Below, piece after piece: positions 1 to 31,525 of a DNA stretch of 32,000 bases (its first letter is position 1; each line of letters begins with the position of its first letter). The notes beneath the pieces were generated by a model. That model was not told the origin of the DNA and searched no databases. It saw only the letters and a program-made list of their open reading frames with translations. The translations under genes were made by a program, and so were the position numbers. Location: NCBI GenBank assembly GCA_027925325.1, contig AP027133.1, forward strand, positions 240,001-272,000, given 5' to 3'. The stretch comes from Candidatus Saccharimonadota bacterium. GTDB taxonomy: Bacteria; Bacillota_I; Bacilli_A; Mycoplasmatales; Hepatoplasmataceae.

Positions 1-641
1 TTAATCCTGATTTAGAAGGTGGCTCTACACAGAGTGAAGTTAATCAAAATAATAAAAATTCTCTTGATGATTTAAATTCCGATGTAACTACAATAGATTC
101 TGATATTGATGATATTAATGAAAAAATAGATAGCATTGTTATTACTAAAACGACTCCAAATGTTATTACTGTTGATAGTAATTTAGAAGGTGGAAATACA
201 CAACAAATAGTTAATGAAACTATACAAAGCGATCTTCAAACTATAGTTTCTAATATCTCTGAAATTATTAATGGTTCAACAACAATAAATATTCAAACAT
301 CATCTGTTATTCCTGAGGATGTTAGTTTGGAAGGAGGAATAAATCAAGAAGAAATAAATAAAAATAATACTAGAAAAATTTATGATTTACGTTGTGCAAT
401 TGATGATATTGTACATGGTGTAATTATAATTCCTATTATTACATCAGATGTTAATACGGTTGATGCAATTTTGGAAAATGGTGAAACACAAAGAGAAATT
501 AATGAAAATAAAAGAAAAATGATAAATTTAATAAATGTTAAAATTAGTAATTTAATTATTACAATAAATACTCTTCAAACAAATATTTCATTTTTATCTT
601 CTTGTAGTGATTGTAGACTACCTCAAAAAACAATTGCTTAA
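1..641 (+). CDS. Fibre-like repeat protein, 3' part only (5' end lies left of the window). Paralog of 989..7312 that stops just after the CxxC junction.
   Basis: Frame 3 is open from nt 3 (NPDLEGGSTQSEVNQNNK...) to TAA 639..641. The tracked ORF 327..641 is only its tail, and its 'M' is an internal TTG. It has four LE(G/N)GxxQxE(V/I)N motifs collinear with the last four repeats of the 2107-aa protein. It ends ...FLSSCSDCRLPQKTIA. Confidence 0.8.
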   Translation, partial: NPDLEGGSTQSEVNQNNKNSLDDLNSDVTTIDSDIDDINEKIDSIVITKTTPNVITVDSNLEGGNTQQIVNETIQSDLQTIVSNISEIINGSTTINIQTSSVIPEDVSLEGGINQEEINKNNTRKIYDLRCAIDDIVHGVIIIPIITSDVNTVDAILENGETQREINENKRKMINLINVKISNLIITINTLQTNISFLSSCSDCRLPQKTIA

Positions 642-988: not shown

Positions 989-3900
989 ATGGAAAAGCAA
1001 ACAAAAATAGATTTTGATAAATATAAAATTAATAGCGAAAATAATAAATATAGAATTAATATAAATAATTTAGAGCAAAAATTAAAAAGTTCAACATCTA
1101 TGACTGATTCTGCACACGTACAGACTATAAATCCTGTAACTGAAGGCGGAGGTTTTCAACAAGAAGTTAACGAAAATATTATAGAAGGTCTTTCTTCACT
1201 TATTGGCGGGGAAGTTCCTTTAGATATTAATACATCTGCTGTTAATACTGTTGATGAAACTAATGAAGGTGGATCAACACAAGAAAATGTTAATAAAAAT
1301 AATAAAACAATTATTGATAATTTAAATTCTGATATTACAACAATAAATTCTGATATTGATGATTTAAATGAAAAAATTGATAATTTTTCTATAGATGTAG
1401 TTAGTTCAGAAATTAGTTCTGTTAATTCTTCTTTAGAAGGTGGATCAACACAAGAAGCAGTTAATAAAAATAATAAACAAAATATTGATGATCTAAATAA
1501 TGATATTAATGATCTTATTAACGGAAATACACAAATAAAAATTAATTCTTCATCTATTGATACATTAACTCCTTCTTTAGAAAATGGTGCAACACAAGAA
1601 GAAGTAAATAAAAATAATAAGCAACTTATTGATTCAATTATCAATGGTGAAAATCCAGCAAAAACAATTTCCTCATCTATTGATACAGAAAATTCTTCAT
1701 TAGAAAATGGTACAACACAAGAAGAAGTAAATAAAAACACAAAAGAAACAATTGATAATATTAATGATCAATTAGATAGTTTTGATGAAAGAATCAACTC
1801 TCTTGATGCAGGAATAAATACATCAAAAGTAAATACAACAAATTATTCATTAGAAGGCGGATCAACACAACAAGAAATTAATATAAAAAATAAAATTGTT
1901 TTTGATTCAATAAATTCTGAAATAGAAGATATTAATAGCAAGATTGATTGTATAGATGAAGGAATCGATACTTCTATAATTAATTCTATTGATTCTGTAT
2001 TAGAAGGAGGAGTAACACAAAAAGACATCAATGAAATTAATAAACAAAATATTGATAATATCAATACTATAGTAAATGATATTGATTGCAAAATTGATGA
2101 TCTTGAAATAAAAACTACTACTTCAAATGTTAGTACAGTTGATGGTTTTTTTGAAGGAGGTCCAACACAAAAGGAAGTTAATGAATCTAATAGAGAAAGT
2201 ATCCGTGCATTAAATTCTGAAATTACAACAATAAATTCTGAAATCACCGAACTTAATGATAAAATGGATTGCCTTGATTGTGGATGTGGTTGTGATGACG
2301 GTTGTGGTTGTGATGATGGATGTGATGACGGATGTGGAAATGATACTTCTTCAATTAAAACTGTGGATTCTGCTTTAGAAAATGGTACAACACAAGAAGA
2401 AGTAAACAAAAATAACAAACAAGCAATCGACGATATTATAGATAATGGAATTTCTCCTGGAGATACTTCAACTGTTGGAACTGTTAATTCATCTTTAGAA
2501 AACGGGGTAACACAAGAAGAAGTTAATAAAAATAATAAAGAAGCAATCGATAATTTAAATGATCAAATTTCAGAACTTCCAACTGATATTATTACCTCGA
2601 TTGTTAAAACTGTTGATGAAACTTTAGAAAATGGTACAACACAAGAAGAAGTTAATAGAAAAAATAAACAAGCAATCGATGATTTAAATGATCAATTAGA
2701 TGGATTTTCAACAACAACAATTACCTCATCTGTTACAACTGTTGATGAAATTTTAGAAAATGGTACAACACAAGAAATAGTAAATAAAAACAACAAACAA
2801 GCAATCGATGATATTAATAATCAAATCGATAATTTTGAGTGTGATTCTAATACAGCATCTGTTTCAACTGTTGATGAAACTTTGGAAAATGGCACAACAC
2901 AAGAAGAAGTAAATAAAAACAACAAACAAGCAATTGATGATATTAATGATCAATTAGATGGACTTCCCACAACTGTAATTACTTCAGCTGTTACAGCTGT
3001 TGATGAAACTTTAGAAAATGGTGAAACACAAGATGCGATTAATAAAAACAACAAACAAGCAATTGATGATTTAAATGATCAATTAGAGAATTTTGAATGC
3101 AGTTCCATTACTTCAACTGTTATTACAGTTAATCAAACTTTAGAAAATGGTACAACACAAGAAGAAGTTAATAGAAAAAGCAAGCAGGCAATCGATGATT
3201 TAAACGAACAATTAGAGAATTTTGAATGTAGTTCCATTACTTCAACTGTTACTACAGTTAATTCAGCTTTAGAAAATGGTACAACACAAGATGAAGTTAA
3301 TAGAAAAAATAAACAAGCAATTGATGATATTAATGATCAATTAGATGATATTCCTGGAGAAGTTATAACTTCATCTGTTAAAACAATTGATATAACTTTA
3401 GAAAATGGTGCAACACAAGATGAGGTTAATAGAAACAACAAACAGGCAATCGATAATATTAATGATCAATTAGATGATATCCCAACTGATATTATTACTC
3501 CAATTATTTTTACAGCTAATGAAACTTTAGAAAATGGGGCAACACAAGATGAGGTTAATAGAAACAACAAACAAGCAATTGATGATATTAATGATCAATT
3601 AGATGGACTTCCAACAACTGTAATTACTTCATCTGTTACAGCTGTTGATGAAACTTTAGAAAATGGTCCAACACAAGATGAGATTAATAAAAATAATAAA
3701 CAAGCAATCGATGATTTAAATAACCAATTAGATTCTATTCCTGATGTTATTACTTCATCTGTTACAACAGTTGATCAAGATTTAGAAAATGGCACAACAC
3801 AAGAAGAAGTAAATAAAAACAACAAACAAGCAATCGATGATATTAATAATCAATTAGATGGACTCCCAACAACTGTAATTACTTCATCTGTTACAGCTGT

Positions 3901-6900
3901 TGATGAAGCTTTAGAAAATGGTCCAACACAAGATGAGATTAATAAAAACAATAAACAAGCAATCGATGATTTAAATAACCAATTAGATTCTATTCCTGAT
4001 GTTATTACCTCATCTGTTACAACAGTTGATCAAGATTTAGAAAATGGCACAACACAAGAAGAAGTAAATAAAAACAACAAACAAGCAATCGATAATATTA
4101 ATGATCAATTAGATGCTTTACCAGATGTTATTACTACTTCAATTGTTGATACTGTTGATGAAACTTTAGAAAATGGTGTAACACAAGAAATAGTAAATAA
4201 AAACAACAAACAAGCAATCGATGATATTAATGATCAATTGGATGCTTTACCAGATGTTATTACTACTTCAATTGTTGATACTGCTGATGAAACTTTAGAA
4301 AATGGTACAACACAAGAAATAGTAAATAAAAACAATAAACAAGCAATTGATGATTTAAATGATCAATTAAATGGACTTCCAACAACAACAATTACTTCAT
4401 CTGTTACAACAGTTGATCAAGATTTAGAAAATGGTACAACACAAGAAGAAGTAAATAAAAACACAAAAGAAGATATTGACAATATAAATACTGAAATTAA
4501 TGATATTAATGAAAAAATTGATAATTTTACTGTAAATGCCCTTACTTCAGATATTACAACAGTTGATGAAATTTTAGAAAATGGTACAACACAAGAAATA
4601 GTAAATAAAAACAACAAACAAGCAATCGATGATTTAAATAGTCAATTAGATGGACTTCCAACAACGATAATTACTTCATCTGTTATAACAATTGATCAAG
4701 ATTTAGAAAATGGTACAACACAAGATGAAGTAAATAAAAATACAAAGGAAGATATTGATAATCTAAATCAAGAAGTAAATAATCTTATTGATAATGGAAT
4801 TTCTCCTGGCGATACTTCATCTGTTACAACCGTTGATTCTACTTCAGAAAACGGCGGAACACAAGATGAAGTTAATAGAAATACTAAAAATAATATTGAT
4901 GATTTAAATTCTGGTGTAGATAATATAAATAATCAAATAAATGACATCATTGATGGAACAACTCCTGTAAAAGGCGATACTTCAAATGTTAATTCAATAG
5001 ATAGTAACGCTGAAGGTGGATCAACACAAAAAATAATAAATGAATCTAACAAGCAAAATATTGATAATTTAAATACTGAAATAAGCACTATTTATACTGA
5101 AATTGATGATATCAATGATATATTAGATGGTTTAGGTGGGGGAGTAATCACATCAGAGATTACCACAATTAATACAGCATTAGAAGGTGGAGATACGCAA
5201 CAAGTAGTTAATGAAAATAATCGAAATGATATAAACACAATAGCGTGTGGAATTATGGAAATTATCGATGGAACTACACAAATAAATGTAAAAACTTCAA
5301 CAGTTGTTCCACAAAGTGTTATTTTAGAAGGTGGAATGACTCAGGAATCGATAAATAAAAATAATATTCAAGAAATTTATAATTTAACTCAAGGTATTAA
5401 TGATATTGCAAGTGGAACAATATTAGTTTCAACTAACACTTTAAATATTAATACTATTAGTGCTAATTTAGAGGGTGGAGCAACACAATATGAAGTTAAT
5501 GAAAATAATAAAGAAGATATAAATTTTATAAATAGTATTCTTAGTAATTTAAATGCAACTGTTGCTTCTTTACAAGCAGATATTGAATCATTATCTGATT
5601 GCACAGGTTGCTCATTAACTCCTGCTCCGGTTGCTATTATTTTGAATGTTAATTCAACTAATGTTACAACAAATGGTGCAAGTGATGGTTCAATTTCTTT
5701 TGATGTAACTATTACTAATTTTGCTGGTACATCAACAGCAAGATTAAATCCAGCTGGTGATACAGAAAATATCATTTTAAGTGGAGGATCAAATACTAAT
5801 TTAAGTTTTGATTCATTACCTGCAGGAAATTATAGTATCGAGATTTATGATGATGAAAATTTAATAACTGAAGAAGATAATATCATAATTACTGAGCCTG
5901 CCCCAGCACCAGAAGCGGTATTTGGAACTGTTACTCCAACTGATGCAACAGTAAACGGTTTGAGTGATGGTTCAATCGCTTTTTCTGTAACTATTAGCAA
6001 TTTTGTTGGCGCACCGACAGCAAGATTAAGTCCTACTCTTGATACAGAAAATATCATTTTAAGTGATGGCGAAAACGCCGATTTAAGCTTTGATTCATTA
6101 CCTGCAGGAACTTATAGTATCGAAATTTATGATGATGAATCTTTAATTAATAGTGAAACTGAAATTACAATTAATGAGCCTGCTCCAGCACCAGAGGCGG
6201 TATTTGGAACTGTTACTCCAACCGATGTAACAGTAAATGGTTTGAGTGATGGTTCAATCGCTTTTGCTGTAACTATTAGCAACTTTGTTGGCGCACCGAC
6301 AGCAAGATTAAATCCAGTTGGTGATACAGAAAATATCATTTTAAGTGATGGCGAAAACGCCGATTTAAGCTTTGATTCACTACCTGCAGGAACTTATAGT
6401 ATCGAGATCTATGATGATGAATCTTTAATTAATAGTGAAACTGAAATTACAATTAATGAACCTGCCCCAGCACCAGAAGCGGTATTTGGAACTGTTACTC
6501 CAACTGATGCAACAATAAATGGTTTGAGTGATGGTTCAATCGCTTTTGCTGTAACTATTAGCAACTTTGTTGGCGCACCGACAGCAAGATTAAATCCAGC
6601 TGGTGATACAGAAAATATCATTTTAAGTGATGGTGAAAACGCCGATTTAAGCTTTGATTCACTACCTGCAGGAACTTATAGTATTGAGATCTATGATGAT
6701 GAATCCTTAATTAATAGTGAAACTGAAATTATAATTAATGAACCTATTCAAATAGCAATTATTGATAATATTTGGACATATGGTGTGATAACTGGTAAAG
6801 ATGGAGCATTCGGTTTTGATGTAACTATTAGCAATTTTTTTGGAGTAGGGAAAGCAGTGATAAAAGAACAAGTAGGTTATGTGCCAGATCATTATGATTT

Positions 6901-7312
6901 AATGGATGGATTAAACAGTGATCTAAGATTTTTTTCTTTACCAGTAGGGACTTATACTCTTCAGATTTATGATGATGAAATTTTGATTAATAAACAAGAG
7001 ATTACGGTTGATATATCTGACCCATTAACAACAATTTCAAATGTAAATACAACAGATGTAACAGTAAATGGAGCAAGCGATGGGTCAATAAGTTTTAATG
7101 TATCAATTTATAATTTTAGAGGAGTAGGAACAGCAAGATTAAATCCTGATGTTGGCACAGATAATATTACTTTACAAAATAATACTTTAAATTATAATTT
7201 AAAGTTTGATTTATTGCCAGCAGGAACTTATAGTATTGAGATTTACGATGATAATAATCTAATTGGCCAAGAGGATGGAATTATAATTAATGAACCACTT
7301 TTACTTTATTAG
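989..7312 (+). CDS. Giant (2107 aa) fibre-like repeat protein: conserved N-terminal head, about 32 short repeats, Cys/Asp/Gly knot, CxxC junction, six ~94-aa Ig-like modules
   Basis: Uninterrupted ORF from ATG 989 to TAG 7310..7312. There are no in-frame TGA codons and a single Trp (TGG). The N-terminus MEKQTKIDFDKYKINSENNKY... has no hydrophobic stretch, and the C-terminus ...IIINEPLLLY has no TM segment. Internal periodicity is strong at both protein and DNA level. Confidence 0.93.
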   Translation: MEKQTKIDFDKYKINSENNKYRININNLEQKLKSSTSMTDSAHVQTINPVTEGGGFQQEVNENIIEGLSSLIGGEVPLDINTSAVNTVDETNEGGSTQENVNKNNKTIIDNLNSDITTINSDIDDLNEKIDNFSIDVVSSEISSVNSSLEGGSTQEAVNKNNKQNIDDLNNDINDLINGNTQIKINSSSIDTLTPSLENGATQEEVNKNNKQLIDSIINGENPAKTISSSIDTENSSLENGTTQEEVNKNTKETIDNINDQLDSFDERINSLDAGINTSKVNTTNYSLEGGSTQQEINIKNKIVFDSINSEIEDINSKIDCIDEGIDTSIINSIDSVLEGGVTQKDINEINKQNIDNINTIVNDIDCKIDDLEIKTTTSNVSTVDGFFEGGPTQKEVNESNRESIRALNSEITTINSEITELNDKMDCLDCGCGCDDGCGCDDGCDDGCGNDTSSIKTVDSALENGTTQEEVNKNNKQAIDDIIDNGISPGDTSTVGTVNSSLENGVTQEEVNKNNKEAIDNLNDQISELPTDIITSIVKTVDETLENGTTQEEVNRKNKQAIDDLNDQLDGFSTTTITSSVTTVDEILENGTTQEIVNKNNKQAIDDINNQIDNFECDSNTASVSTVDETLENGTTQEEVNKNNKQAIDDINDQLDGLPTTVITSAVTAVDETLENGETQDAINKNNKQAIDDLNDQLENFECSSITSTVITVNQTLENGTTQEEVNRKSKQAIDDLNEQLENFECSSITSTVTTVNSALENGTTQDEVNRKNKQAIDDINDQLDDIPGEVITSSVKTIDITLENGATQDEVNRNNKQAIDNINDQLDDIPTDIITPIIFTANETLENGATQDEVNRNNKQAIDDINDQLDGLPTTVITSSVTAVDETLENGPTQDEINKNNKQAIDDLNNQLDSIPDVITSSVTTVDQDLENGTTQEEVNKNNKQAIDDINNQLDGLPTTVITSSVTAVDEALENGPTQDEINKNNKQAIDDLNNQLDSIPDVITSSVTTVDQDLENGTTQEEVNKNNKQAIDNINDQLDALPDVITTSIVDTVDETLENGVTQEIVNKNNKQAIDDINDQLDALPDVITTSIVDTADETLENGTTQEIVNKNNKQAIDDLNDQLNGLPTTTITSSVTTVDQDLENGTTQEEVNKNTKEDIDNINTEINDINEKIDNFTVNALTSDITTVDEILENGTTQEIVNKNNKQAIDDLNSQLDGLPTTIITSSVITIDQDLENGTTQDEVNKNTKEDIDNLNQEVNNLIDNGISPGDTSSVTTVDSTSENGGTQDEVNRNTKNNIDDLNSGVDNINNQINDIIDGTTPVKGDTSNVNSIDSNAEGGSTQKIINESNKQNIDNLNTEISTIYTEIDDINDILDGLGGGVITSEITTINTALEGGDTQQVVNENNRNDINTIACGIMEIIDGTTQINVKTSTVVPQSVILEGGMTQESINKNNIQEIYNLTQGINDIASGTILVSTNTLNINTISANLEGGATQYEVNENNKEDINFINSILSNLNATVASLQADIESLSDCTGCSLTPAPVAIILNVNSTNVTTNGASDGSISFDVTITNFAGTSTARLNPAGDTENIILSGGSNTNLSFDSLPAGNYSIEIYDDENLITEEDNIIITEPAPAPEAVFGTVTPTDATVNGLSDGSIAFSVTISNFVGAPTARLSPTLDTENIILSDGENADLSFDSLPAGTYSIEIYDDESLINSETEITINEPAPAPEAVFGTVTPTDVTVNGLSDGSIAFAVTISNFVGAPTARLNPVGDTENIILSDGENADLSFDSLPAGTYSIEIYDDESLINSETEITINEPAPAPEAVFGTVTPTDATINGLSDGSIAFAVTISNFVGAPTARLNPAGDTENIILSDGENADLSFDSLPAGTYSIEIYDDESLINSETEIIINEPIQIAIIDNIWTYGVITGKDGAFGFDVTISNFFGVGKAVIKEQVGYVPDHYDLMDGLNSDLRFFSLPVGTYTLQIYDDEILINKQEITVDISDPLTTISNVNTTDVTVNGASDGSISFNVSIYNFRGVGTARLNPDVGTDNITLQNNTLNYNLKFDLLPAGTYSIEIYDDNNLIGQEDGIIINEPLLLY
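2270..2335 (+). other. Cys/Asp/Gly micro-repeat encoding CLDCGCGCDDGCGCDDGCDDGC (8 Cys in 22 residues)
   Basis: The DNA reads tgc ctt gat tgt gga tgt ggt tgt gat gac ggt tgt ggt tgt gat gat gga tgt gat gac gga tgt. An 18-nt unit (tgtggttgtgatgaYggN) occurs twice, followed by a 12-nt partial unit. The homologous position in the 7366..9588 gene is CLECCC (8335..8352). Confidence 0.9.
3572..4081 (+). repeat. Near-identical 2 x 255-nt (85-aa, two-repeat unit) tandem duplication inside the giant gene
   Basis: 3572..3826 and 3827..4081 encode AIDDIN(D/N)QLDGLPTTVITSSVTAVDE(T/A)LENGPTQDEINKNNKQAIDDLNNQLDSIPDVITSSVTTVDQDLENGTTQEEVNKNNKQ. Only a handful of nucleotide differences are visible. Confidence 0.85.
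5894..6739 (+). repeat. Three near-identical 282-nt (94-aa) tandem units, the core of six Ig-like modules spanning about 5612..7309
   Basis: Units start at 5894, 6176 and 6458 (gagcctgc/gaacctgc...) and the next module starts at 6740. Each encodes EPAPAPEAVFGTVTPTD(A/V)T(V/I)NGLSDGSIAF(S/A)VTISNFVGAPTARL(S/N)P...DTENIILSDGENADLSFDSLPAGTYSIEIYDDESLINSETEI(T/I)IN. The flanking modules 1, 5 and 6 are more divergent. Confidence 0.9.
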
Positions 7313-7365: not shown

Positions 7366-9588
7366 ATGGAAAAAAAAATAAATTTCAATAATAGAAAAAA
7401 TGATTATATAAATAATTTAAATCAATTAAAAACAAAAGTTTCAGTATCATTAACTGATTCGGCACATGTCCAAACTATAAATCCAGTATCTGAAGGAGGT
7501 GGATTTCAACAAGAAGTAAATGAAAATATTATAAAAAATCTTGATTCAATTATTGATGGCAATATTTCAATTACAACAAATACATCTTCTGTTAACACAA
7601 TTGATTATTCTTTGGAAGGTGGAACAACACAAGAAGAAGTTAACAAAACAAATAAACAAAATTTGAATAATTTATCAGATCAAATTGATGATCTTGTTGA
7701 GGGCAATAATCCAGTTAAGACAATTACATCTTTTATTAATACAATTGATTATTCTTTGGAAGGTGGAAAAACACAAGAAGAAATTAATAAAATTAATAAA
7801 GAAAAAATTGATAGTATAAATAATTTAATTGATGCAATTGATGATAAAATTAGTGATTCTAATTTAGAAATTAATACAAATAAAATTAATGCGACAAATA
7901 TTACTTTGGAAGGTGGAACAACACAACAAGAAATTAATATAAGAAATAAATCTAATTTTGAAACAATAAATTCTGAAATAACTGATCTTAATGATAAAAT
8001 TGATGATCTTGATTTTCTTGATGGTGATATTAATACTTCATCAGTAAAAGCAATTGATACTCTTTTAGAAGGAGGAGTATCACAAAAAGAAATAAATGAA
8101 ATCAATAAACAAAACATTGATAACATAAATATTACAATTAGTGATCTTGATTGCAAAATTGATGATATTGAATTAAAAACTGATACTTCTTTTGTTGATA
8201 CTGTAGATGGATTTTTTGAAGGTGGAACAACACAACAAGAAGTTAACGAATCTAATAAAGTAAGTATTCTTAAATTAGATTCTAAGATTATTTCAATAAA
8301 TTCTGAAATTACTGATCTTACTGAAAAAATTGAATGTCTCGAGTGTTGTTGTAATCAAGAGATTGATACTTCACTTGTTAGTACAACAAATTGTGATTTA
8401 GAAGATGGAAATACACAACAAGAAGTAAATCAAAATAATAAAAAAAGTATTGATAATTTAAATAATCAAATAGATACTATTGATGATTCAATTATAGATA
8501 TTAATAGTATTATTAATTTAAATAATCTTGATGATCCTATTCCTCAAACTGGAGTTGCTGATGCAATTAATTATATTTGAGAAAAAGGTCAAATTAATTT
8601 GAATAATTATTATACAAAAGAAGAAGTTGATTTATTATTAAATCAAAAAGAAAAAGATTATAATGATAAATTGAAAAATTTACAAATTCAAATTGATCAT
8701 TTGTTTATTTGTACAAAATGTAGAAGTTTAAATCCAATTGCAATGATTCAAAACATTGTTCCGATCAATGTTACAGCAAATGGTGGTGAAGATGGTTTAA
8801 TCTCTTTTGCTGTAACTATTAGTAATTTTAAAGGTTTACCAACAGCAAGATTAAATCCAGCCGTTAATAATACTAACATTACTTTAAGTGATGGTGAAAA
8901 CGCTGATTTAGTCTTTGATTTATTACCTGCAGGAAATTATAGTATTGAGATTTATGATGATGAAACTTTAATTAATAGTGAAAATGGTATCACAATTAGT
9001 GAACCGGCTCCGTTACCGGAGGCGGTATTTGAAAATGTTATTGCAACTGATGTAACAGAAAATGGCTTAAGTGATGGTTTAATTTCTTTTGATGTAACTA
9101 TTAGCAATTTTGTTGGCACACCGACAGCAAGATTAAATCCAGCTGGTGATACACAAAACATCACTCTAAATGATGGAACAAATATTGATTTATTTTTTTA
9201 TTCTTTACAAGCAGGAAATTATAGTATTGAGATCTATGATGATGAAACTTTCATTAATAGTGAAACTGGAATTACAATTAATGAACCGGCTCCAACAGCA
9301 AAAGTATCATTTGAAAGCATTACTCCAACTGATGTAACGATAAATGACTTAAGTGATGATTCAATCTCTTTTACTGTAAATATTAGTAATTTTGTTGATA
9401 CAGCAATAGCAAGATTAAATCGATCCAGTGATACAGAAAATATCATTTTAAGTGATGGCGAAAAAATTGATTTAAGCTTTGATTCATTACCTGCAGGAAC
9501 TTATAATATTGAGATTTATGATGATGATATTTTAATTAATAAAGAAGAAATAATTATTGATAAAGTGGAACCGCCTTTAATTTCTTAG
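7366..9588 (+). CDS. 740-aa fibre-like repeat protein with the same architecture as the giant gene but a short stalk and three Ig-like modules. It is a single gene under table 4.
   Basis: ORFs 7366..8580 and 8599..9588 are both in frame 1. They are separated only by TGA 8578..8580 (Trp) and gaa aaa ggt caa att aat, with no TAA or TAG between them. The joined sequence reads ...GVADAINYIWEKGQINLNNYYTKEEVDLLL... The N-terminal ~330 aa are collinear with the giant protein. CxxC lies at 8710..8721, followed by three ~94-aa modules. Confidence 0.85.
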
Positions 9589-9609
9589 AAAATATAATTT
9601 TTAATAGAT

Positions 9610-10025
9610 ATTTATTAATTAAAATATTTAGGTAAATTAAATTTTAATAAAAATAATTATAATGATTCAAATGAGTTAAAAATAAAGGCTTCAGTATTAT
9701 TAACTGATTCTTCGCATGTTCAAACTATAAATAAATTATCAGAGGAAGTGGATTTTTGAATAATTAAATGGAAATATTAAAAAATTTAAAAATTCAAATT
9801 GATTATTTATTTTTACAAAATGTGAAAGTTTAAGTCTAATTACAATAATCCAAAACATTTTTTAATGAATATTAAAATAAATTATGACAAATATAATTCA
9901 ATCTTTTTTGATGAAATATTAGTAATTTTAAGACTTACTTATAACAAATTAAATCTACGATGATGATACTTTAATTAATATTTAAAAAGCATCATAATTA
10001 TTTAGTCATTTCCAGCACAAGAATA
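9610..10025 (+). pseudogene. Decayed, internally deleted fossil of a further fibre-protein gene copy
   Basis: The region matches successive landmarks of the 7313..9588 unit in order. First comes the 5' leader (attaattaaaatatttaggtaaattaaa vs attaattattaaaatatttaggaaaattaaac). Next is the N-terminal motif (ttaactgattcttcgcatgttcaaactataaat = LTDSSHVQTIN). Then the CxxC junction (aaaaatttaaaaattcaaattgattatttatttttacaaaatgtgaaagttta vs 8674..8730). One Ig-like module remnant follows (attagtaattttaag..., gatgatgatactttaattaat, ccagcacaagaa). Multiple stops are present and all stalk repeats are lost. Confidence 0.75.
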
Positions 10026-10195
10026 AATATTTGAAAAACTTTAATTAAATTTATAAATAAATATAATAAATTTAAAAATAAAAATGATTTTAAAAGAGAA
10101 TAATTTTATAAATTTAATGAAATTATTTATAATTGAATTATCAATAAATTCTTTATATTAATTATAGGATTTAATTTTGCTATTTTAGTTCGAAT

Positions 10196-14760: not shown

Positions 14761-17103
14761 TTGATTAATTTGATGAAAAAATTTGTTTTTAATATTTTTT
14801 CTTTATTGATACTTGTATTGGGTCTTTCTATTGGCCAAATTGGGATAAATTTAAATCTAGATAATGATGAAAATTCATTTAAAACATATGATAATAATCA
14901 AAGTGATATTGATCAATTATTAGTTGGTTTAAATCAATCTTTTTATGTTGATCCTAATACTAAAACACTTTATCAAAATGATTATGATTTAACACTTTTG
15001 GCAAGTCCTGATAATTCTAATAATTGGGTTGAAAAAGACTTAAATTCCAATTTATTTATGCAAGATTTTAGCTATAATATAGATACAATTACCTATGATT
15101 TAAATTTTGAATTAGATACAAAAAATAATTGAAATACAAATTTTTATTTGCGTGCTGATGATTATTTATTTATTACTTATTTTACAAGTAAAAGTGATTA
15201 TGATTATCTTTATTTTAAACTTCCAGAGGAGATAAGCACAGTAGAAATTGCTGATTTTGGATATGTAAATAATCAATTTATTGTTTTATTTGCTAATGGC
15301 GATTTTACCTTGGGAGAATCTTTTTTTGAATATGATCAAGATAATAGTTTATATTCTGATTTTAAATATTTAAATGCTGGTAAAATGATTGATTTAGTGA
15401 TGACTGATACTTATTTATTTGCGTTATCAGATCAGGGGGCAATTTATCAATATGGAGTAGATATTTTTAATGTCTTAAGTTTTGAATCAAATTTAGATCA
15501 ACCATTAATTGTATATTCTTATGATCAAAATTTAGATCAAGGATATTATTATACTTATAAATCAAATCGTAATCAAGCACAAAATATTAGTCTAATTAAT
15601 GGTTATGCACTTGAACTATCAATCGAAGTTGACAGTAATTCTTCTAGTGATAATAATTTAATTATTAAAACAGATCGTAATTTTTATCAAATTTATTATT
15701 ATAGAAATTATTTTATTACAGTTGATCAATTTTTTAATGAAGATAACTATAATGTAAATTCTTATAGTATTAAAGAAAATCATTTTAATGATTCAAAACT
15801 TTATGCGATTAATACTTTAAATCCTGATAATTATCTTTATATTACAAGTATTAATGATTTTTCAGAAATTTCATTACAAATAATTGATTTTAATTTATTA
15901 ACTGATATTAAAAATACCTCAATTGATGGTTATTCATCTCCAATTTATCAAAAAGAAATTATTAATTTTGCAGAAACAGAATCACCAGATGTTTATTTAA
16001 TAAAAACAAATGATGATTTGGAATATTTGATTAAATTAATAATAGAAGATCAAAATATTATATATTATGAAGTTACAACTTATAATTGAATTGATAAATT
16101 AGAAGAAAGTAATTTTAGCGGAAAGATACGTTTAGTATCACAAAATCAAACATCAGTGGAATTTGAAGTTGTTGATACTAAAATAAATAGTGACAGATCT
16201 TTAGAAGATGCAAATTTTGCGATTAAAATTAATAATGTATTAGTTGATGATTCTTATTATACTTTAAAATTTGAAGGAATTTATTATGATCAAAATAATA
16301 CTTTAAGTTATCATTTTAAAGTCAATTTTGGATTAGCAAGTTCAAATTCCTTGATTTATTTTGATCAGGTTGAAATGTATAATCAAAGTAACCAATTAAT
16401 TTCAAAAAATACTAATTATATGTCTTATACTGAAATGCAATCAGCAATTATAAAACAAAATAATAGTTTTGAAATTATTGAAAATAGTCAAGATGATAGT
16501 GATACTAGTTTTTACTTTACAATTTCATTTTTAGTAACCGGTGATTATAATTTTGCAAATGATGATGTTGTTTCCTTGAATGCTTTAGAAGATGTGAATG
16601 GAGTTACAAAAAATGTTAATTTAGATACAACTTATGTTAAGTCAATTCAAAATGTAGATTCTCAAACTCCTTTTGGTGAAGTAAATAAGACTTACGAATA
16701 TGAAGTTAATAATTTAGATGAAGAAGCTGTTTATAGTAATTTTAATTTAATTGTATCTCAACCCAATGTTATCGGTGATGTCCAAACAGAAACATTTGCT
16801 TTAAATACAAGTGCTCAATTTATTAGTGGAGGAAATTCAGCTTTTCCAATTACAGCATATATTTTATTAGTGGTATTTATTTTATTATTTGTAGTTATCT
16901 TTGCTTTTTATTATTTAAATTATGTTTATAATAAAAAATCAGCAGAAAAAATTGAATATACTTTTGAAAATTGAAATAATCTTTCTGATCTTGAAATTAA
17001 TAAAAATGATAAGACAATTAAAACAGAAGAGTACAATCCCGGCACTATTCATAGAAAAAATGATCACGATCAAGATATAAAGCAAAAAAACAACAAAAAT
17101 TAA
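14761..17103 (+). CDS. Large (about 780 aa) secreted or tail-anchored surface protein: N-terminal signal-like helix, Tyr/Asn/Asp-rich ectodomain, C-terminal TM helix and a ~55-aa charged tail
   Basis: ORFs 14761..15132, 15148..16089 and 16156..16974 are all in frame 1 and joined by TGA codons. The frame continues to TAA 17101..17103. The N-terminus is (MINL)MKKFVFNIFSLLILVLGLSIGQ with no Cys. The TM helix is FPITAYILLVVFILLFVVIFAFYYL. The start is either TTG 14761 (GGGG 7 nt upstream) or ATG 14773. Confidence 0.8.
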
Positions 17104-17859: not shown

Positions 17860-19155
17860 ATGAAAAATATAACATTTATAGATGAAGCTAAAATTAAAAT
17901 AAAGGCTGGAAATGGTGGCGATGGAAAACTTGCATTTCATCGAGAAAAATATGTTGAACGAGGAGGCCCTTCGGGTGGCAATGGCGGAAATGGAGGCTCA
18001 ATATATTTTAAGGCAACAACAAATTTAAATACCCTTTTAGGTTTTCGGGGTAAATCAATTTATAAAGCTGAAAATGGACAAAATGGCGATATTAAAAATA
18101 TGACCGGAAGGAATGGAAAAGATTTTTTTATTTTAGTTCCGATTGGAACAGAAATAATTTTAAATGAGCAAAAATTAATTGATCTTACCTATAATAATCA
18201 GATAATTATTGTTGCAAAGGGTGGAAAAGGCGGAAGAGGAAATGCTTCTTTTAAATCTTCTAAAAATAATGCACCTACAATTTATGAAAAAGGCGAACAA
18301 ACAGAATTTATCGAAGTTATTCTAAATTTAAAATTACTCGCTGATGTCGGATTACTGGGATTGCCCAATGCGGGAAAATCAACTTTAATTTCGGTTATTT
18401 CAAATGCAAGACCAAAAATTGATAATTATCAATTTACAACATTAAAACCACAATTAGGTGTTGTAAATTATAAAAATAATAATTTTGTAATTACTGATTT
18501 ACCAGGTTTAATTGCCGGTGCGAGTCAAAATAAAGGGATGGGAATTGAATTTTTAAAACATCTTACAAGAACAAAAATTTTATTGCATTTAATTTCAGCT
18601 GAAGAAAAAGATTTATTAAAAAATTATCGATTAATTAGAAAGGAAATTTCGCTTTATTCAAAAAAATTAGCAAAAACTCCAGAAATTATCGTAATTACAA
18701 AAATGGATATTCTTAATAAACAACAAAAAGAAATAATTAAAAACGCTTTTTCAAACAAAAAAATATTTTTTATTAGCGCAATTAAGCATCAAGGTTTAAA
18801 TTTATTATTACAAGAAATTGTTGATAATCTTAATAATATAAATAAATTAAGACAAATTGAAAATGATAAATTTTTAAATAAGGAAACAGAAGAATTTATT
18901 TATCATAAATATCAAAAAGAATCAATTGAATTTGAGATTGTCAAAAAAGATAATACTTGAATTATTAGTGGTAAATATCCTAAATATTGAGCTAATAGAA
19001 TTCCACTTACAACATATGAAAATTATTTAAGAATTATTAAAAAATTTGAAAATAAAGGAATTATTGCAGAATTAAAAGCAAAAGGTTTAAAAGAGGGTGA
19101 TATTATTACCGTAAAAGATACTTATTTTACGGTTGAATATCAAAATAACTTTTAA
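17860..19155 (+). CDS. obg: GTPase Obg/CgtA
   Basis: 431 aa. It has the Gly-rich Obg fold (AGNGGDGKLAFHREKYVERGGPSGGNGGNGGSIYF), G1 GLPNAGKST, G3 DLPGLI, and a C-terminal extension read through TGA at 18958 and 18988. Confidence 0.95.
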
Positions 19156-24776: not shown

Positions 24777-27701
24777 TTATTTTTTTTCAAATGCATTTGG
24801 ATCATCTAACATTTTAGATATTTCTTTTGTTTTCTTTTTCATTCTAAGATCAACAAATAATAAAACTAATATTAAAATAATTAATATTATCAATATTACC
24901 ATTATTAAATATATTATATTTTTCGTTGTATTATTATTATCAGTCTTTATTATTCCATTCTCAGAAATATCTAATGAATCATCTTCGATTGAATTGGTAA
25001 AACTTAAACTAGTAAAATTATAGGTAGTATTAGCTTTAAGATTATTAACTTCAAAACTAAATTGATATTGCATAGTTCCATTTTCTTGATTCTCACTTAA
25101 TTTAATAGCACTTCCTTCGATATAATTTGAATTATAACTATCGTTATCATTATCGATTAAATATAACCCATCTTCTAAATTGAAATTTTCAAATACTGGA
25201 TTTTGTTCATTATCATCTAATAAAATTAAATTATCGATTGCTACGGTATAAGTAAATGAATTTTTTGTAATTGAGGATTGATCAATAATGAAACTATCAT
25301 TCACAAAATTTTTATCAATTATAGTAGTTTCAATGATAAATGGATTAGAAAAATTAATAACATCATCATTTGAAATATTAGGATCAATAATACTTAAACC
25401 AATAAATTGATAAGTTTGTCCCGTTATAAGATTATCTTGTAAAAATGTTAATTGATAATTTTGTGTTCCGTTTATTGAACCATTTGAAATTATTTTTGCA
25501 TCAATAAATGTTGAATGATAGTAATTATTATCTTGATCAATAAGTCAAATTCCTTCATTTACATCATATTGTGTAAAATTTGTTTTATCAGAATTTGTTT
25601 TTAAATTATCAATTTCAAGTGTATATTGAAATTCACTTGTTTGTAAAGAATTATCAACTAATGAAATTGTATCTGCTTTTATTTCAGGTACGGCTGCTTC
25701 TGTTATAAATTTTGTTGGATCTTGATTAACTTCATATTTGTATTGATTATCATCATAAAAATATTGAACGATATCTATTTGATAATTTGTTTCTGCATTT
25801 AAATTTGTTAATTCAAATTGATAATTATCATCAATAAAAAATTCTTTAGAATTAGAAATATTATTATCAAGATCAGTGTAATTAATTTTTATTTTCCTTT
25901 GATCATTTGTGTAACCATTGATATCAAAATTATTGCTATTTTGATCTAAATTTAAAGCAAAAGTAGCTGTCTCTTCCGTAGCCGAAACAAAATTATAACT
26001 AGAAATTAAATAATCTATTGTAATTTCTTGTTGATTTAATTCAAATTCATTTCCATTAATTATTATTTTAGTAAAATCATAACTTTGACCATACATAATA
26101 TCATTTATTTGATAATAATATTGATCACTTTCAATATTTGATTTATCATTAATAAATGTTGTTGTATAATTGTCATTATTTTGATCAACTAATGTTATTA
26201 TTGGTTCTTGATTTAAAATATTTTTATAATCATTTAAAATAATATTAAATTCAATCTTATTTCCTTGTTGATAATAAAATTCTATTTCATTAATCAAAAA
26301 ATCAAAAGAAGAATCAATTATCGTTGGAACATGTTTATCAACTGTACTATTATCGCCAAGTTGTCCATCGGCATTATATCCTCACATATACAAGGTATCA
26401 GCATATCCATCTAAATCTTTATCAATTGTAACACCACTATGATATCCACCTAAACTTAAATCAATAATATCTGCATTTCAATCACTTTGCCCTTGTGGTA
26501 TTATTTTTATCGGAATATCCTTATTATTTGTACTATTATCGCCAATTTGACCATAATTATTTCTTCCTCACATATACAAGATATCGGCATATCCATCTAA
26601 ATCAATATCAATTGTAACTCCGCTATGATAGTATCCTAAACTTAAATCAATAATGTTTCCGTTTCAATCACTTTGATTTTGTGGTGTTATTTTTGTTGGA
26701 ATAAGTTTATTATTTGTACTATTATCACCAATTTGGCCACTACCATTATATCCTCACATATACAAGGTATCGGCATATCCATTTAAATCAGTATCAATTG
26801 TAGCGCCACTATGATCTGAACCTAAACTTAAATCAATAATGTTTCCGCCTCAATCACTTTGATTTTGTGGTGTTATTTTTGTTGGAATAAGTTTATTATT
26901 TGTACTATTATCACCAATTTCTCCACTACTATTAGCTCCTCACATATATAATGTATCGGCATATCCATCTAAATCTTCATCGATTGTTAAACCACTATGA
27001 TCTGTTCCTAAATTTAAATCAATAATGTTTCCGCCTCAGTTTGTTTGTTCAGAAGGAGTTATTTTTTTTGGGACATATCTAGGACTTCTAGTATTATCGC
27101 CTATTTGTCCATTACTATTATCACCTCACATATAAAGTGTATCAGCATATCCATCTAAATCCGTATCAATTGTAACTCCACTATGAGTTGAACCTAAATC
27201 TAAATCAATAATGTTTCCGCCTCAATCACTCTGTCCTTGTGGTGTTATTTTTGTTGGAATATATTTATGATCTGCTATACTGCCATCACCAATTTGGCCA
27301 AAAGTATCATTTCCTCACATATACAAGGTATCGGCATATCCATCTAAATCTGTATCAACTGTAGCACCACTACCATAATCGCCTAAACTTAAATCAATAA
27401 TGTTTCCGCCTCAATCTTCTTGCTCAGCAGGAATTATCTCTATTGGTACATATTTATCTTCTGTACTATTATCACCAATTCCTCCATAATCATTAGCTCC
27501 TCACATATAGAGACTATCAGCAGCTTTATCTGAATTAGTGTCAACTGTAGCACCACTAGCATTTCCACCTAAACTTAAATTAATAATATTATCATTTTGA
27601 TTTAAATTTAAATCTTTTTCTTTTTTATTAAAAAAAGAATTAAATGAATTAAATTCTATTAATATTAGTGGAATTAAAAATGCAATAAATAATTTTTTCA
27701 T
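24777..27701 (-). CDS. 974-aa surface protein: signal peptide, seven-bladed RCC1-like beta-propeller with DxDxDG loops, four FN3/Ig-like stalk modules, C-terminal TM anchor
   Basis: ORFs 27501..27701, 25545..26297 and 24777..25304 share one frame (2925 nt = 975 codons). The gaps translate cleanly when TGA = Trp. The sequence (Y)MWGxNxxGQIGDNS recurs 7 times. The TM helix is IIYLIMVILIILIILILVLLFV, followed by a basic tail. Confidence 0.88.
26320..27587 (-). repeat. Seven tandem units of about 186 nt (62 aa) encoding the RCC1-like blades
   Basis: Consensus: IIDLSLGxxHSG(V/A)TIDTDLDGYADTLYMWGxNxxGQIGDNSTxxKxIPTKITPQxQSDWGGN. Both Trp residues in each blade are TGA, seen as 'cctca' on the + strand about every 186 nt. 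Confidence 0.88.
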
Positions 27702-30832: not shown

Positions 30833-31525
30833 ATGTTCAAAAGTAGGTTTTTTTCTTTATTTTTTAGCTTTGTGATCTTTTTTTCATTATTTGGATTTGT
30901 TGATACAAAGAAAATAAAAAATGATAGTTTTTTAAAATATCAAAATCAAGCTGAATTTTTGGTTAGCGCTAATGCTAAAGAAAATATTTATACAGCAAAT
31001 GTTAATAGTGTAGGTAGGGATAGTATTAAATTTACAGTTTATGATATTCCCAGTGAATTTATTCCAAGTGATTTAACAGGTGAAGTTATTTATGCTTTTT
31101 CATTAGATCAAAATGCTAGTGATTCTGCTGATTTTCCAAATAATACAAATATAAAAGTAGATGAGGTAATTTTAGATAGTAATGATCAAACATATGATTT
31201 TGTTTTTACTGTTTCTGATTTAGATTCAAGTACAACTTATGAAATTTATTCTATTTATGGATGATATGCAGATAGCAATAATCCAAATGATTGAATTCCA
31301 TTCAGTGATGGTGATGGAAATAATGAAATTCAACTTGTGAACGAAAGTGGTGAAGCAGGGATTAGCGGAACTACCAAAATAGGATCAGGATATTTTTACG
31401 GAATTATTGCAATTTCTATTGTTGTCTTTATTTTACTTATTTTAATTATTGTTTTATTCTTAGTAAGATTTAAGGATTATCGTAAAACAAAAGAAAAATA
31501 CGATTTATTAAATAAAGAGTTATAA
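30833..31525 (+). CDS. 230-aa tail-anchored surface protein: signal-like N-terminus, one FN3-like module, C-terminal TM helix
   Basis: ORFs 30833..31264 and 31337..31525 are in frame and joined through two TGA codons (...IYSIYGWYADSNNPNDWIPFSDG...). The N-terminus is MFKSRFFSLFFSFVIFFSLFGFV. The module motif YDFVFTVSDLDSSTTYEIYSI resembles the stalk modules of the propeller proteins. The TM helix is YFYGIIAISIVVFILLILIIVLFLV. Confidence 0.8.

What the first reader, a model, noticed from the sequence alone, without database searches (positions are those of the whole stretch)
1100..5595. About 32 copies of an unrecognised 40-46-aa repeat that looks like a segmented coiled coil
Each unit pairs a short Asn/Asp/Leu/Ile-rich heptad-like segment (EEVNKNNKQAIDDLNDQLD, roughly 2-3 heptads) with a Ser/Thr/Val-rich non-helical segment (GLPTTVITSSVTAVDETLENGTTQ). 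The L-E-(N/G)-G-x-T-Q core is nearly invariant. Alternating short coiled-coil segments and connector loops are the building plan of trimeric fibres such as T4 fibritin, trimeric autotransporter stalks and phage tail fibres. The sequence YYTKEEVDLLLNQK in the 740-aa paralog (about 8608..8649) also reminds me of a Y-(T/S)-K-x-E-x-D-x-x-L motif common in phage tail-fibre proteins. That resemblance is from memory only.
Basis: inference. Interest (0 to 1): 0.7.

Follow-up and report, generated by a model that had tools for sequence, protein, structure and literature searches.

The report
Giant phage-fibre-like coiled-coil protein

Summary
ORF 989..7312 (+) encodes 2,107 aa with 31 clear units and one degenerate unit. 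Unit length is 40-75 aa, most often 43, and each unit has an invariant E-G-Q-N core.

The window is Candidatus Hepatoplasma scabrum chromosome, read with genetic code 4. By its position next to HPPSJP_2250, the gene is the published "giant repetitive ORF" HPPSJP_2240.

The coiled-coil reading is supported:
- Hydrophobic residues fill eight successive a/d positions at 0.69-1.00.
- Q@d, N@a and N@d form conserved polar core layers.
- Unit lengths step by 7 residues. In the H. vulgare homologue the helices are exactly 18, 25, 32 or 39 residues, built from I-x-x-N-T-x-x heptads.
- A monomer AlphaFold model gives only isolated helices, with no globular or solenoid fold.

No family in the local Pfam, NCBIfam or PDB copies matches the repeat, and no PHROG of known function does.

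A profile search of 1.84 billion proteins found seven hits. They are Hepatoplasma proteins and proteins on small code-4 contigs. One contig is a phi29-like phage, with connector and packaging-ATPase hits, and carries the repeat next to its structural genes. A second phage-like contig shares the shaft, the Cys pair and the Ig-like domains.

All chromosomal copies lack a signal peptide or membrane anchor. Oligomer state, location and function remain inferred. I rate it a new variant of a known kind.

The parts
989..7312 (+). Giant fibre gene (2,107 aa). It is inferred to be HPPSJP_2240 of Candidatus Hepatoplasma scabrum, because it lies next to HPPSJP_2250.
   Evidence: ORF. The neighbouring paralog is an exact match to BDV03504.1 / HPPSJP_2250. 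The genome paper names HPPSJP_2240 as a giant repetitive ORF. It has no TM or signal segment.
989..1231 (+). N-terminal cap (MEKQTKIDFDKYK...) plus a degenerate first unit (SAHVQTINPVTEGGGFQQEVNEN).
   Evidence: Sequence. The first unit is nearly identical in the paralog and in the H. crinochetorum orthologue.
1232..5608 (+). 31 tandem units (aa 82-1540). Each has a Thr/Ser/Val connector, an L-E-(N/G)-G-x-T-Q turn and a heptad helix.
2270..2338 (+). Cys/Gly/Asp-rich insert CLDCGCGCDDGCGCDDGCDDGCG at the end of the long helix of unit 7.
   Evidence: TRF finds 18-nt and 30-nt repeats at 2278..2337. The paralog has CLECCC at the equivalent place.
5600..5611 (+). CTGC (a CxxC pair) directly after the last helix.
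   Evidence: The pair is also present as CSDC, CTKC and CTDC in relatives, and as CC in the phage-contig protein.
5612..7309 (+). Six Ig/FN3-like beta-sandwich domains of about 94 aa each.
   Evidence: Pfam DUF2141, TcfC and Y_Y_Y hits. TRF period of 282 nt. In the paralog model these domains reach pLDDT 80-93. Foldseek matches tandem Ig/FN3 arrays. The paper also reports an Ig-like fold.
7366..9588 (+). 740-aa paralog HPPSJP_2250. It has the same cap, 6 units plus a degenerate one, the ADAINYIW and YYTKEEVD helices, CTKC and three Ig-like domains.
8608..8721 (+). YYTKEEVDLLLNQK... helix (AlphaFold H418-450) ending in CTKC.
   Evidence: The motif is conserved in phage-contig protein P0004 and in its neighbouring ORF.
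3..641 (+). 3' end of a third paralog, cut by the window start. It has 4 units, ends just after CSDC and has no Ig-like domains.

Best explanation
Nt 1232..5608 encode the shaft of a giant fibrous protein. Each unit is a roughly 20-residue beta-prone Thr/Ser/Val connector that ends in an invariant L-E-(N/G)-G-x-T-Q turn. My reading is that T-Q-E-E acts as a helix N-cap. The turn is followed by a 3-5-heptad alpha-helix. Its first three core layers are polar (Q at d, N at a, N at d) and the remaining layers are Ile/Leu.

I infer that several chains, most likely three, run in parallel. On that reading the helices form 31 short coiled-coil segments joined by connector knots. A Cys pair clamps the end. 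Six Ig-like domains sit at the far (C-terminal) tip. The helices alone would span about 124 nm.

The shaft module is homologous to the shaft of fibre proteins of small phi29-like phages that use genetic code 4. The chromosomal gene family enlarged the module by tandem duplication in whole units and whole heptads. The most likely job is to act as a long spacer fibre that presents the Ig-like tip for binding to the isopod gut surface or to other cells.

What is shown: the repeat, the heptad design, the homology to phage proteins and the absence of export signals. What is inferred: the oligomer state, the structure of the connectors, the location of the protein and the binding function.
For: Heptad design:
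- VILMFYW occupancy is 1.00, 1.00, 0.95, 0.95, 0.72, 0.91, 0.69 and 0.90 at unit positions 28, 31, 35, 38, 42, 45, 49 and 52. It is below 0.25 at most positions in between.
- Q17 and N21 are invariant and N24 is 83% conserved.
- 23 of 38 unit lengths equal 43 plus a multiple of 7.
- Power at a 3.5-residue period is 14 SD above shuffles.

Independent homologue P0005 (H. vulgare): in all 23 units the helix is 18, 25, 32 or 39 residues long, with I at a, N at d and T at e. N at d followed by T at e is the commonest polar core motif of trimeric autotransporter stalks. N at a with Q at d binds Ca2+ in the trimeric P22 tail needle (PMC13580157).

AlphaFold: helices fall at unit positions 17-35 and nothing else folds. 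In the paralog the helix centres reach pLDDT about 55-80, the connectors fall below 50 and the Ig-like domains reach 80-93.

Phage link:
- The repeat profile hits P0006 at E=3e-23.
- Read with code 4, P0006 is part of a 657-aa ORF on contig L017 that lies two ORFs upstream of a connector gene (Pfam Phage_connector 5.7e-12, phrog_2038 2e-23). A packaging ATPase (phrog_2150 2e-22) lies two ORFs beyond the connector.
- That ORF aligns to the giant protein at E=4e-15.
- P0004 on contig L018 aligns to giant-protein aa 1323-1663 at E=3e-42. A neighbouring ORF on L018 is 49% identical to the Ig-like domains.
- The ATPase-like ORF of L018 has phi29 gp16 as its only PDB hit (E=0.009).

Selection: dN/dS among the 43-aa units is about 0.6, and the core positions do not vary.
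Against: - No multimer model or experiment was possible, so parallel trimer versus dimer or tetramer is open. N at a favours dimers in leucine zippers.
- The connectors have no predicted structure (pLDDT below 50).
- Every chromosomal family member in three species lacks a signal peptide or TM segment, while neighbouring surface proteins in the same window have both. An extracellular adhesin role therefore needs an unknown export route.
- No phage structural gene lies in the window or in the other Hepatoplasma loci examined.
- The phage identity of L018 and L001 rests on weak evidence.
Confidence: 0.65

Rival explanations
1. Phage-directed function. The leaderless chromosomal fibre homologues stay in the cytoplasm. 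There they either co-assemble with incoming phage fibre chains and poison virion assembly (a decoy), or they are loaded onto phage-like particles to change their targets.
For: The shaft, the Cys pair, the Ig-like domains and, for P0003, the whole distal head are shared with phage-contig fibres. P0003 is 56% identical to P0004 over 672 aa, and only the N-terminal ~87 aa differ. There are no export signals. P0003 sits beside an AAA_15/AAA_21 ATPase and a large helicase, a neighbourhood that resembles a defence island. Hepatoplasma genomes keep CRISPR and restriction-modification systems, which implies phage pressure.
Against: A 2,107-4,617-aa decoy is far larger than a decoy needs to be. Three to four tandem giant paralogs per genome in a 0.6-Mb genome suggest a structural role. 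No defence genes flank the window locus. The idea is speculation with no direct test.
Confidence: 0.12
2. Intracellular cytoskeletal fibre, for example a structural element of the stalk that gives this 'stalk-forming' mollicute lineage its name. This would be analogous to the leaderless coiled-coil protein HMW2 of the Mycoplasma pneumoniae terminal organelle.
For: The proteins are leaderless and very long, with coiled-coil periodicity. The lineage is described as stalk-forming in the title of Wang et al. 2004, cited.
Against: Homologues are phage virion-type proteins. Foldseek places the tandem Ig/FN3 array among extracellular or virion fibres such as SiiE, T5 pb4 and mastigonemes. The conserved Cys pair after the coil suggests inter-chain disulfides, which need an oxidising environment. 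The comparison with HMW2 comes from my own knowledge and no homology was found.
Confidence: 0.1
3. Not a coiled coil. The units are amphipathic helices and loops that stay monomeric, either disordered or as a helix-loop repeat. The heptad pattern would then reflect only amphipathicity in an Asn/Asp/Ile-rich proteome.
For: The monomer AlphaFold model has pLDDT 43. Power at a 3.67-residue period (0.80) is a little higher than at 3.5 (0.65) in these short segments. Three of about seven core layers per unit are polar.
Against: The a/d phase holds without drift over up to five heptads. Length changes come in exact sevens in two species. Polar-core coiled coils are typically predicted as disordered (PMC13580157). 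All weak PDB and NCBIfam hits fall on coiled-coil proteins.
Confidence: 0.08

Closest known systems
Fibre or appendage proteins of phi29-like podophages, here the undescribed code-4 contigs L017 and L018
   Same: These are true homologues. They share the same repeat unit (profile E=3e-23 and 1e-40; blastp 4e-15 and 3e-42), the YYTK helix, the Cys pair and the Ig-like domain. On L017 the repeat-bearing ORF lies two ORFs upstream of the connector gene.
   Different: The phage proteins have 1-5 units where the giant protein has 31. They have different N-terminal (virion-side) regions. Two of them end in a globular head instead of an Ig-like array. The window gene lies among housekeeping genes with no other phage gene nearby.
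Phage T4 fibritin (wac)
   Same: The building plan is the same: a parallel trimeric coiled coil broken into a dozen or so segments by short loops (from my own knowledge, not retrieved here).
   Different: No sequence similarity was found. There is no foldon. The connectors here are longer (about 20 aa) and strongly conserved. The polar Q/N/N layers recur in every unit.
Stalks of trimeric autotransporter adhesins (YadA, SadA, BadA)
   Same: Both have coiled-coil segments alternating with connector elements. Both have a high share of Asn at d, and the I-x-x-N-T-x-x heptads appear in the H. vulgare homologue (PMC13580157).
   Different: This protein has no signal peptide and no match to any autotransporter Pfam family (anchor, stalk or head). 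The organism is a mollicute and so has no outer membrane. The weak PDB hits to SadA fragments are not significant (E=0.4).
P22 tail needle gp26
   Same: It is a trimeric phage coiled coil with an N-at-a / Q-at-d polar layer that binds Ca2+ (PMC13580157). The units here have Q at d, N at a and N at d.
   Different: The motif order differs (Q-x-x-x-N-x-x-N against N-x-x-Q-D). No homology was detected.
Giant Ig-fold adhesins and fibres (SiiE, Bap, T5 pb4, GhpA)
   Same: The C-terminal tandem beta-sandwich array matches them by Foldseek, with E between 1e-7 and 1e-5.
   Different: The similarity is at fold level only, with 9-15% identity. Those proteins lack the coiled-coil shaft, and the cellular adhesins among them have export signals.

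Membership tests
Trimeric autotransporter adhesin | C-terminal YadA-type beta-barrel anchor | tested here: not met
   Pfam scans of aa 1-600 and aa 1517-2107 of the giant protein and of the whole paralog listed no YadA_anchor at E up to 1. The C-terminus consists of Ig-like domains.
Trimeric autotransporter adhesin | N-terminal signal peptide and a Gram-negative outer membrane | tested here: not met
   The maximum 19-residue Kyte-Doolittle hydropathy is 1.20, with no TM-like segment. The organism is a mollicute.
Trimeric autotransporter adhesin | Stalk or head motifs (YadA_stalk, Hep_Hag, HIM, necks) | tested here: not met
   None appeared in the Pfam output. The PDB hit to SadA is not significant at E=0.38.
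Phage fibre / receptor-binding protein | Homology to a protein encoded among phage virion genes | tested here: met
   The 657-aa ORF of L017 aligns at E=4e-15. It lies two ORFs upstream of a connector gene, and a packaging ATPase lies two ORFs beyond the connector.
Phage fibre / receptor-binding protein | Encoded in a phage or prophage | tested here: not met
   The window neighbours are IleRS, a permease, Obg, RNase J and TrpRS. tblastn with the phage-contig proteins finds only the fibre genes in the Hepatoplasma loci. The window has no tRNA gene.
Phage fibre / receptor-binding protein | N-terminal virion-attachment domain shared with phage homologues | tested here: not met
   The P0004 to P0003 alignment starts at P0004 aa 88. 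The chromosomal N-termini (MEK...) are a separate conserved type.
Phage fibre / receptor-binding protein | Homotrimer | not testable with these tools
   Only monomer AlphaFold2 was available.
Phage tail-fibre repeat families (Pfam or PHROG) for the Y-T-K-x-E-x-D motif | Significant profile match over the motif | tested here: not met
   Pfam gave no hit at E up to 10. The best PHROG hit has unknown function, E=0.023. tblastn against GenBank phages gave nothing relevant.
Heptad coiled coil | a/d hydrophobic periodicity kept in phase, with insertions or deletions in sevens | tested here: met
Heptad coiled coil | Knobs-into-holes packing in an oligomer | not testable with these tools
   This needs a multimer model or a solved structure.
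Any curated repeat family (Pfam-A, NCBIfam) | Match above the family's curated cut-off | tested here: not met
   A 'faint' precomputed hit to DUF8428 (PF28532) appears on P0001 and P0003. That model is not in the local Pfam copy. The hit is absent from P0005, which has 23 units but no Ig-like domain, so it probably reflects the Ig-like domain.
Alpha/beta coiled coil (beta-layer fibres, Hartmann 2016) | Nonad or hexad insertions with the motif [aliphatic]-A-T-K-[polar]-[DE] | tested here: not met
   The motif is absent from the units. The helices hold a pure heptad phase up to the connector (paper read).

The most novel reading that the evidence does not exclude
A minimal-genome symbiont keeps three or four giant, leaderless copies of its own phages' fibre shaft. 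One reading is that they interfere with phage assembly or attachment, as fibre mimics or decoys, or that they ride on phage-like particles. A second reading is that they form the internal scaffold of the Hepatoplasma stalk. Either would be a new use of a phage fibre module. In addition, the 31 repeated Q/N/N polar layers would make the rod's stiffness depend on bound ions.
Probability: 0.15. Interest if true: 0.8.

Novelty: new variant of a known kind. Interest (0 to 1): 0.55.

Why it matters
- It gives a structural reading and an evolutionary origin for the "giant repetitive ORFs". The Hepatoplasmataceae genome paper could describe these only as repeats plus Ig-like folds and suggest that they are adhesins.
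- It links these genes to small phi29-like phages that use code 4. I found no description of such phages for this lineage: the 2014 genome paper reported no detectable phage, IMG/VR holds no relatives, and I did not search the phage literature.
- It flags a problem for the adhesin idea, because none of the proteins has an export signal.
- For coiled-coil research, it offers a natural protein with three consecutive polar core layers repeated 31 times. That is the kind of sequence now being studied as polar-core coiled coils that are predicted to be disordered.

Tried and rejected
- Pfam, NCBIfam and PDB sequence searches on the repeat found nothing significant. PHROGs gave only two unknown-function families (E about 2e-6 to 3e-6) that I take to be compositional.
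I replaced it with a 51-nt degenerate DNA pattern.
  - IMG/VR gave 0 matches.
  - The genome collection gave multi-copy matches only in Hepatoplasma.
  - Single matches elsewhere were aldehyde dehydrogenases and other chance hits.
- The Y-T-K-x-E-x-D motif has no support from Pfam, PHROGs or tblastn.
- The L001 proteins have no PHROG, Pfam, PDB or GenBank-phage hit, so that contig stays unclassified.
- The C-terminal head of P0003 found no homologues.
- IMG/VR has no relatives of P0004 or of the L017 connector.
- The promoter and terminator scan was uninformative in this AT-rich DNA.
- Foldseek on the paralog model reports only generic tandem Ig/FN3 arrays.
- The four-unit model (pLDDT 43) was too poor for a fold search.
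- I considered a beta-layer (alpha/beta coiled coil) reading and dropped it, because the motif and the nonad/hexad spacing are absent.
- I take the antisense ORFs across the repeats (for example 1843..5091 on the minus strand under code 4) to be by-products of the repeat.
- The exact sequence of the giant protein is not in the protein collection, and contig look-up failed for P0001. I therefore could not read the DNA upstream of the window.


Full report
**What the window is.** GC content is 20-35%. Many long reading frames appear only when TGA is read as Trp, so genetic code 4 applies. The 740-aa product of 7366..9588 is an exact match to BDV03504.1, hypothetical protein HPPSJP_2250 of the metagenome-assembled genome Candidatus Hepatoplasma scabrum. 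The Obg protein encoded at 17860..19155 is an exact match to BDV03509.1. [quoted passage not shown] By its position next to HPPSJP_2250, the ORF under study (989..7312, +, 2,107 aa) is inferred to be HPPSJP_2240. [quoted passage not shown] It maps the repeats with MEME and predicts Ig-like folds for the C-terminal units. It suggests an adhesin role and does not mention coiled coils or phages (PMC10928387).

**The observation.** It is confirmed.
- There are 31 units with the core E-[GN]-G-x-[TS]-Q between aa 82 and 1540, plus a degenerate first unit.
- E12, G14, Q17 and N21 are invariant in 36 aligned units from the giant protein and its paralog.
- A degenerate DNA pattern for the core matches 29 times in the window and never in shuffles.
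- The 740-aa paralog has 6 units plus the degenerate one. A third paralog, cut by the window start (3..641), has 4 units and ends without Ig-like domains.
- Among the fourteen 43-aa units, nucleotide identity is 69-91% and dN/dS is about 0.6. Positions 11-14, 16-17, 21, 25, 27-29, 32 and 34 do not vary. Variation is concentrated at positions 3, 5, 9, 10 and 36-43.

**Anatomy of a unit.** Numbering starts at the conserved Thr:

T1-S-x-V4-x-T-V7-D-x-x-L11-E12-(N/G)-G14-x-T16-Q17-E-E-V20-N21-K-N-N24-K25-Q-A-I28-D-D-L31-N-D-Q-L35-D-x-L38-P...

- From Q17 onward the sequence follows a heptad pattern. The large hydrophobic residues VILMFYW fill positions 28, 31, 35, 38, 42, 45, 49 and 52 at 1.00, 1.00, 0.95, 0.95, 0.72, 0.91, 0.69 and 0.90. 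Most positions in between are below 0.25.
- With I28 as position a, the invariant Q17 falls on d, the invariant N21 on a, and N24 (83% conserved) on d. Each helix therefore opens with three polar core layers and continues with four or more Ile/Leu layers.
- 23 of 38 unit lengths are 43, 50 or 57, and the extra residues extend the helix by whole heptads.
- Power at a 3.5-residue period is 14 SD above shuffles. Power at 3.67 is slightly higher in these short segments.
- The best independent check is the H. vulgare homologue P0005 (4,617 aa). In all 23 of its units the helix runs exactly 18, 25, 32 or 39 residues from Q17 to a closing S/G-G. It has Ile at every a position, Asn at most d positions and Thr at e, which gives I-x-x-N-T-x-x heptads.
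- A 2026 paper from the Lupas and Hartmann groups provides context. N at d is by far the commonest polar core residue of trimeric autotransporter stalks and is followed by T at e in about half of cases. N at a with Q at d coordinates Ca2+ in the trimeric P22 tail needle. Such polar cores point at the axis in trimers and tetramers and are typically predicted as disordered (PMC13580157).

**Structure prediction.**
- AlphaFold2 on four units as a monomer, using a 25-row alignment of unit windows, gave pLDDT 43. Helices fall at unit positions 17-35 and nowhere else.
- On the whole paralog, the helices are 24-38 residues long and reach pLDDT about 55-80 at their centres. The connectors fall below 50. 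The three C-terminal beta-sandwich domains reach 80-93. YYTKEEVD... opens a 33-residue helix that ends at CTKC.
- No confident globular or solenoid fold appeared, which is what an obligate oligomer would give. The tools offered no multimer prediction, so the oligomer state is untested.
- Foldseek aligned only the Ig-like array, to generic tandem Ig/FN3 fibres and adhesins. Examples are mastigonemes, T5 pb4, SiiE, GhpA and a phage "SprB repeat" protein.

**Known families.**
- Pfam-A, NCBIfam and PDB sequence searches give nothing significant for the repeat. PHROGs gives only two unknown-function families, which I take to be compositional. The weak hits are coiled-coil proteins, among them trimeric ones: coronavirus spike HR, SadA fragments, HA2 and Tcar0761 from the PDB, and SMC and SlaB from NCBIfam.
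- A precomputed "faint" hit to DUF8428 (PF28532) appears on P0001 and P0003. That model is not in the local Pfam copy. The hit is absent from P0005, which has the repeat but no Ig-like domain, so it probably belongs to the Ig-like domain.

**Distribution.**
- The unit profile, searched against 1.84 billion representative proteins, hit seven proteins.
- The DNA pattern gave multi-copy matches only in the Hepatoplasma genomes in the collection (H. crinochetorum, H. vulgare). It gave none in IMG/VR, and only chance single matches elsewhere.

**The phage link.** Three of the seven hits lie on small contigs that use code 4.
- *L017* (10.7 kb, JGI 3300037460):
  - Its repeat protein is a 657-aa ORF with five unit cores when read with code 4.
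  - That ORF lies two ORFs upstream of a phi29-type connector gene (Pfam Phage_connector 5.7e-12, phrog_2038 2e-23).
  - A packaging ATPase lies two ORFs beyond the connector (phrog_2150 2e-22). Its nearest GenBank relatives are the encapsidation proteins of small Clostridium and Streptococcus podophages.
  - A protein-primed-type DNA polymerase N-terminus lies at the contig end.
  - The 657-aa ORF aligns to the giant protein at E=4e-15.
- *L018* (11.4 kb, Logan ERR14127550):
  - P0004 (713 aa) aligns to giant-protein aa 1323-1663, which covers the last units, the Cys pair and the first Ig-like domain, at E=3e-42.
  - An upstream ORF has an Ig-like domain 49% identical to those in the window.
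  - The adjacent 465-aa ORF shares P0004's N-terminus and carries several YYTKEEIDDLL-type motifs.
  - The only PDB hit of its ATPase-like ORF is phi29 gp16, E=0.009.
  - L018 is therefore probably a phage of the same kind, on weaker evidence.
- *L001* carries P0009, which has one unit. Its proteins match nothing known.
- P0003, a chromosomal gene of H. crinochetorum, is 56% identical to P0004 over 672 aa. It differs only in the first ~87 residues.
- tblastn with the proteins of the three small contigs (L001, L017, L018) finds only the fibre genes in the Hepatoplasma loci. No connector, ATPase or other virion gene turns up.

**Context and localisation.**
- The genes after the paralogs are housekeeping genes: IleRS, a permease, Obg, RNase J and TrpRS. 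The window has no tRNA gene.
- The giant protein and its relatives in three species have no hydrophobic segment that could serve as a signal peptide or anchor. The maximum 19-residue hydropathy is 0.47-1.28 in all but one relative, and 1.66 in the 2,883-aa H. vulgare ORF.
- By contrast, the other surface-type proteins in the same window have an N-terminal signal, a C-terminal TM helix, or both. These are 14773..17103, the RCC1-like proteins on the minus strand and 30833..31525.
- The chromosomal proteins share their own N-terminus (MEK...F..YK). Their first unit (SAHVQT[IV]NPVTEGGGFQQEVNEN) is almost unchanged between species.

**Interpretation.**
- Shown: a heptad-based helix-connector unit repeated 31 times. 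It is homologous to the shaft of phage fibre proteins and is followed by a conserved Cys pair and Ig-like domains.
- Inferred: a parallel, probably trimeric, segmented coiled-coil rod. Four points support a trimer.
  - Phage fibres are almost always trimers.
  - N-at-d / T-at-e heptads are known from trimers.
  - Ile is frequent at both a and d.
  - A Cys pair at the end of a coil recalls inter-chain disulfide rings.
- The helices alone would span about 124 nm.
- The most likely role is a long spacer that presents the Ig-like tip. The missing export signal is a real gap in that story.
- Three alternatives remain open: a phage-directed role (decoy or hijack), an internal stalk scaffold, or no coiled coil at all.

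**Verdict.** The protein is not a trimeric autotransporter and is not encoded in a phage. It is a lineage-restricted, greatly expanded variant of a phage-type segmented coiled-coil fibre. The gene itself is already published as a repetitive hypothetical ORF. The genome paper mentions neither the coiled-coil reading nor the phage homology.

Noticed in passing
window 27764..30698 (-): Two adjacent ORFs together match the intact 974-aa neighbour at 24777..27701. The first (372 aa) has a signal and RCC1-like blades and ends oddly in WCYCWYWFGWIC. The second (601 aa) starts in the middle of a blade and ends in a TM helix. This looks like a frameshifted copy, or a long-read assembly error near 29570..29640.
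   Followed up: partly
window 2270..2338 (+): A Cys/Gly/Asp-rich insert (CLDCGCGCDDGCGCDDGCDDGCG) ends the long helix of unit 7. It is built from 18-nt and 30-nt DNA repeats, and the paralog has CLECCC at the same spot. It could be a disulfide knot or a metal-binding site.
   Followed up: no
window 5600..5611 and 8710..8721; window 3..641: A Cys pair (CTGC, CTKC, CSDC, CTDC, or CC in the phage-contig protein) directly follows the last helix in every family member seen. The truncated third paralog ends just after this pair and has no Ig-like domains.
   Followed up: partly
L017 (JGI 3300037460, 10.7 kb), L018 (Logan ERR14127550, 11.4 kb), L001 (Logan ERR14657315, 9.9 kb): These are small contigs with 23-28% GC that use genetic code 4. 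L017 is a phi29-like podophage, with connector and packaging-ATPase hits, a weak hit to a protein-primed-type polymerase, and a collagen-like ORF at 8151..9104. IMG/VR holds no relatives. The 2014 Hepatoplasma genome paper reported no detectable phage.
   Followed up: partly
L002 10001..12190 (H. crinochetorum Ps, CWGI01000001.1): Chromosomal gene P0003 is 56% identical to phage-contig fibre P0004 apart from the first ~87 aa. It lies beside an AAA_15/AAA_21 ATPase and a 1,351-aa AAA_11/AAA_12 helicase, a neighbourhood that resembles a defence island.
   Followed up: no
window 14773..17103, 24777..27701, 30833..31525: Several predicted surface proteins carry an N-terminal signal and a C-terminal TM anchor. 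They contrast with the leaderless fibre proteins. The RCC1-like beta-propeller proteins are already discussed in the genome paper.
   Followed up: partly
window 9589..10195: A gap of about 600 nt, very AT-rich and without an ORF, separates the paralog from the IleRS gene. It was not examined further.
   Followed up: no
window 1843..5091 (-): Under code 4 a 1,082-codon antisense ORF runs through the repeats. I take it to be a by-product of the repetitive, stop-poor sense frame.
   Followed up: no
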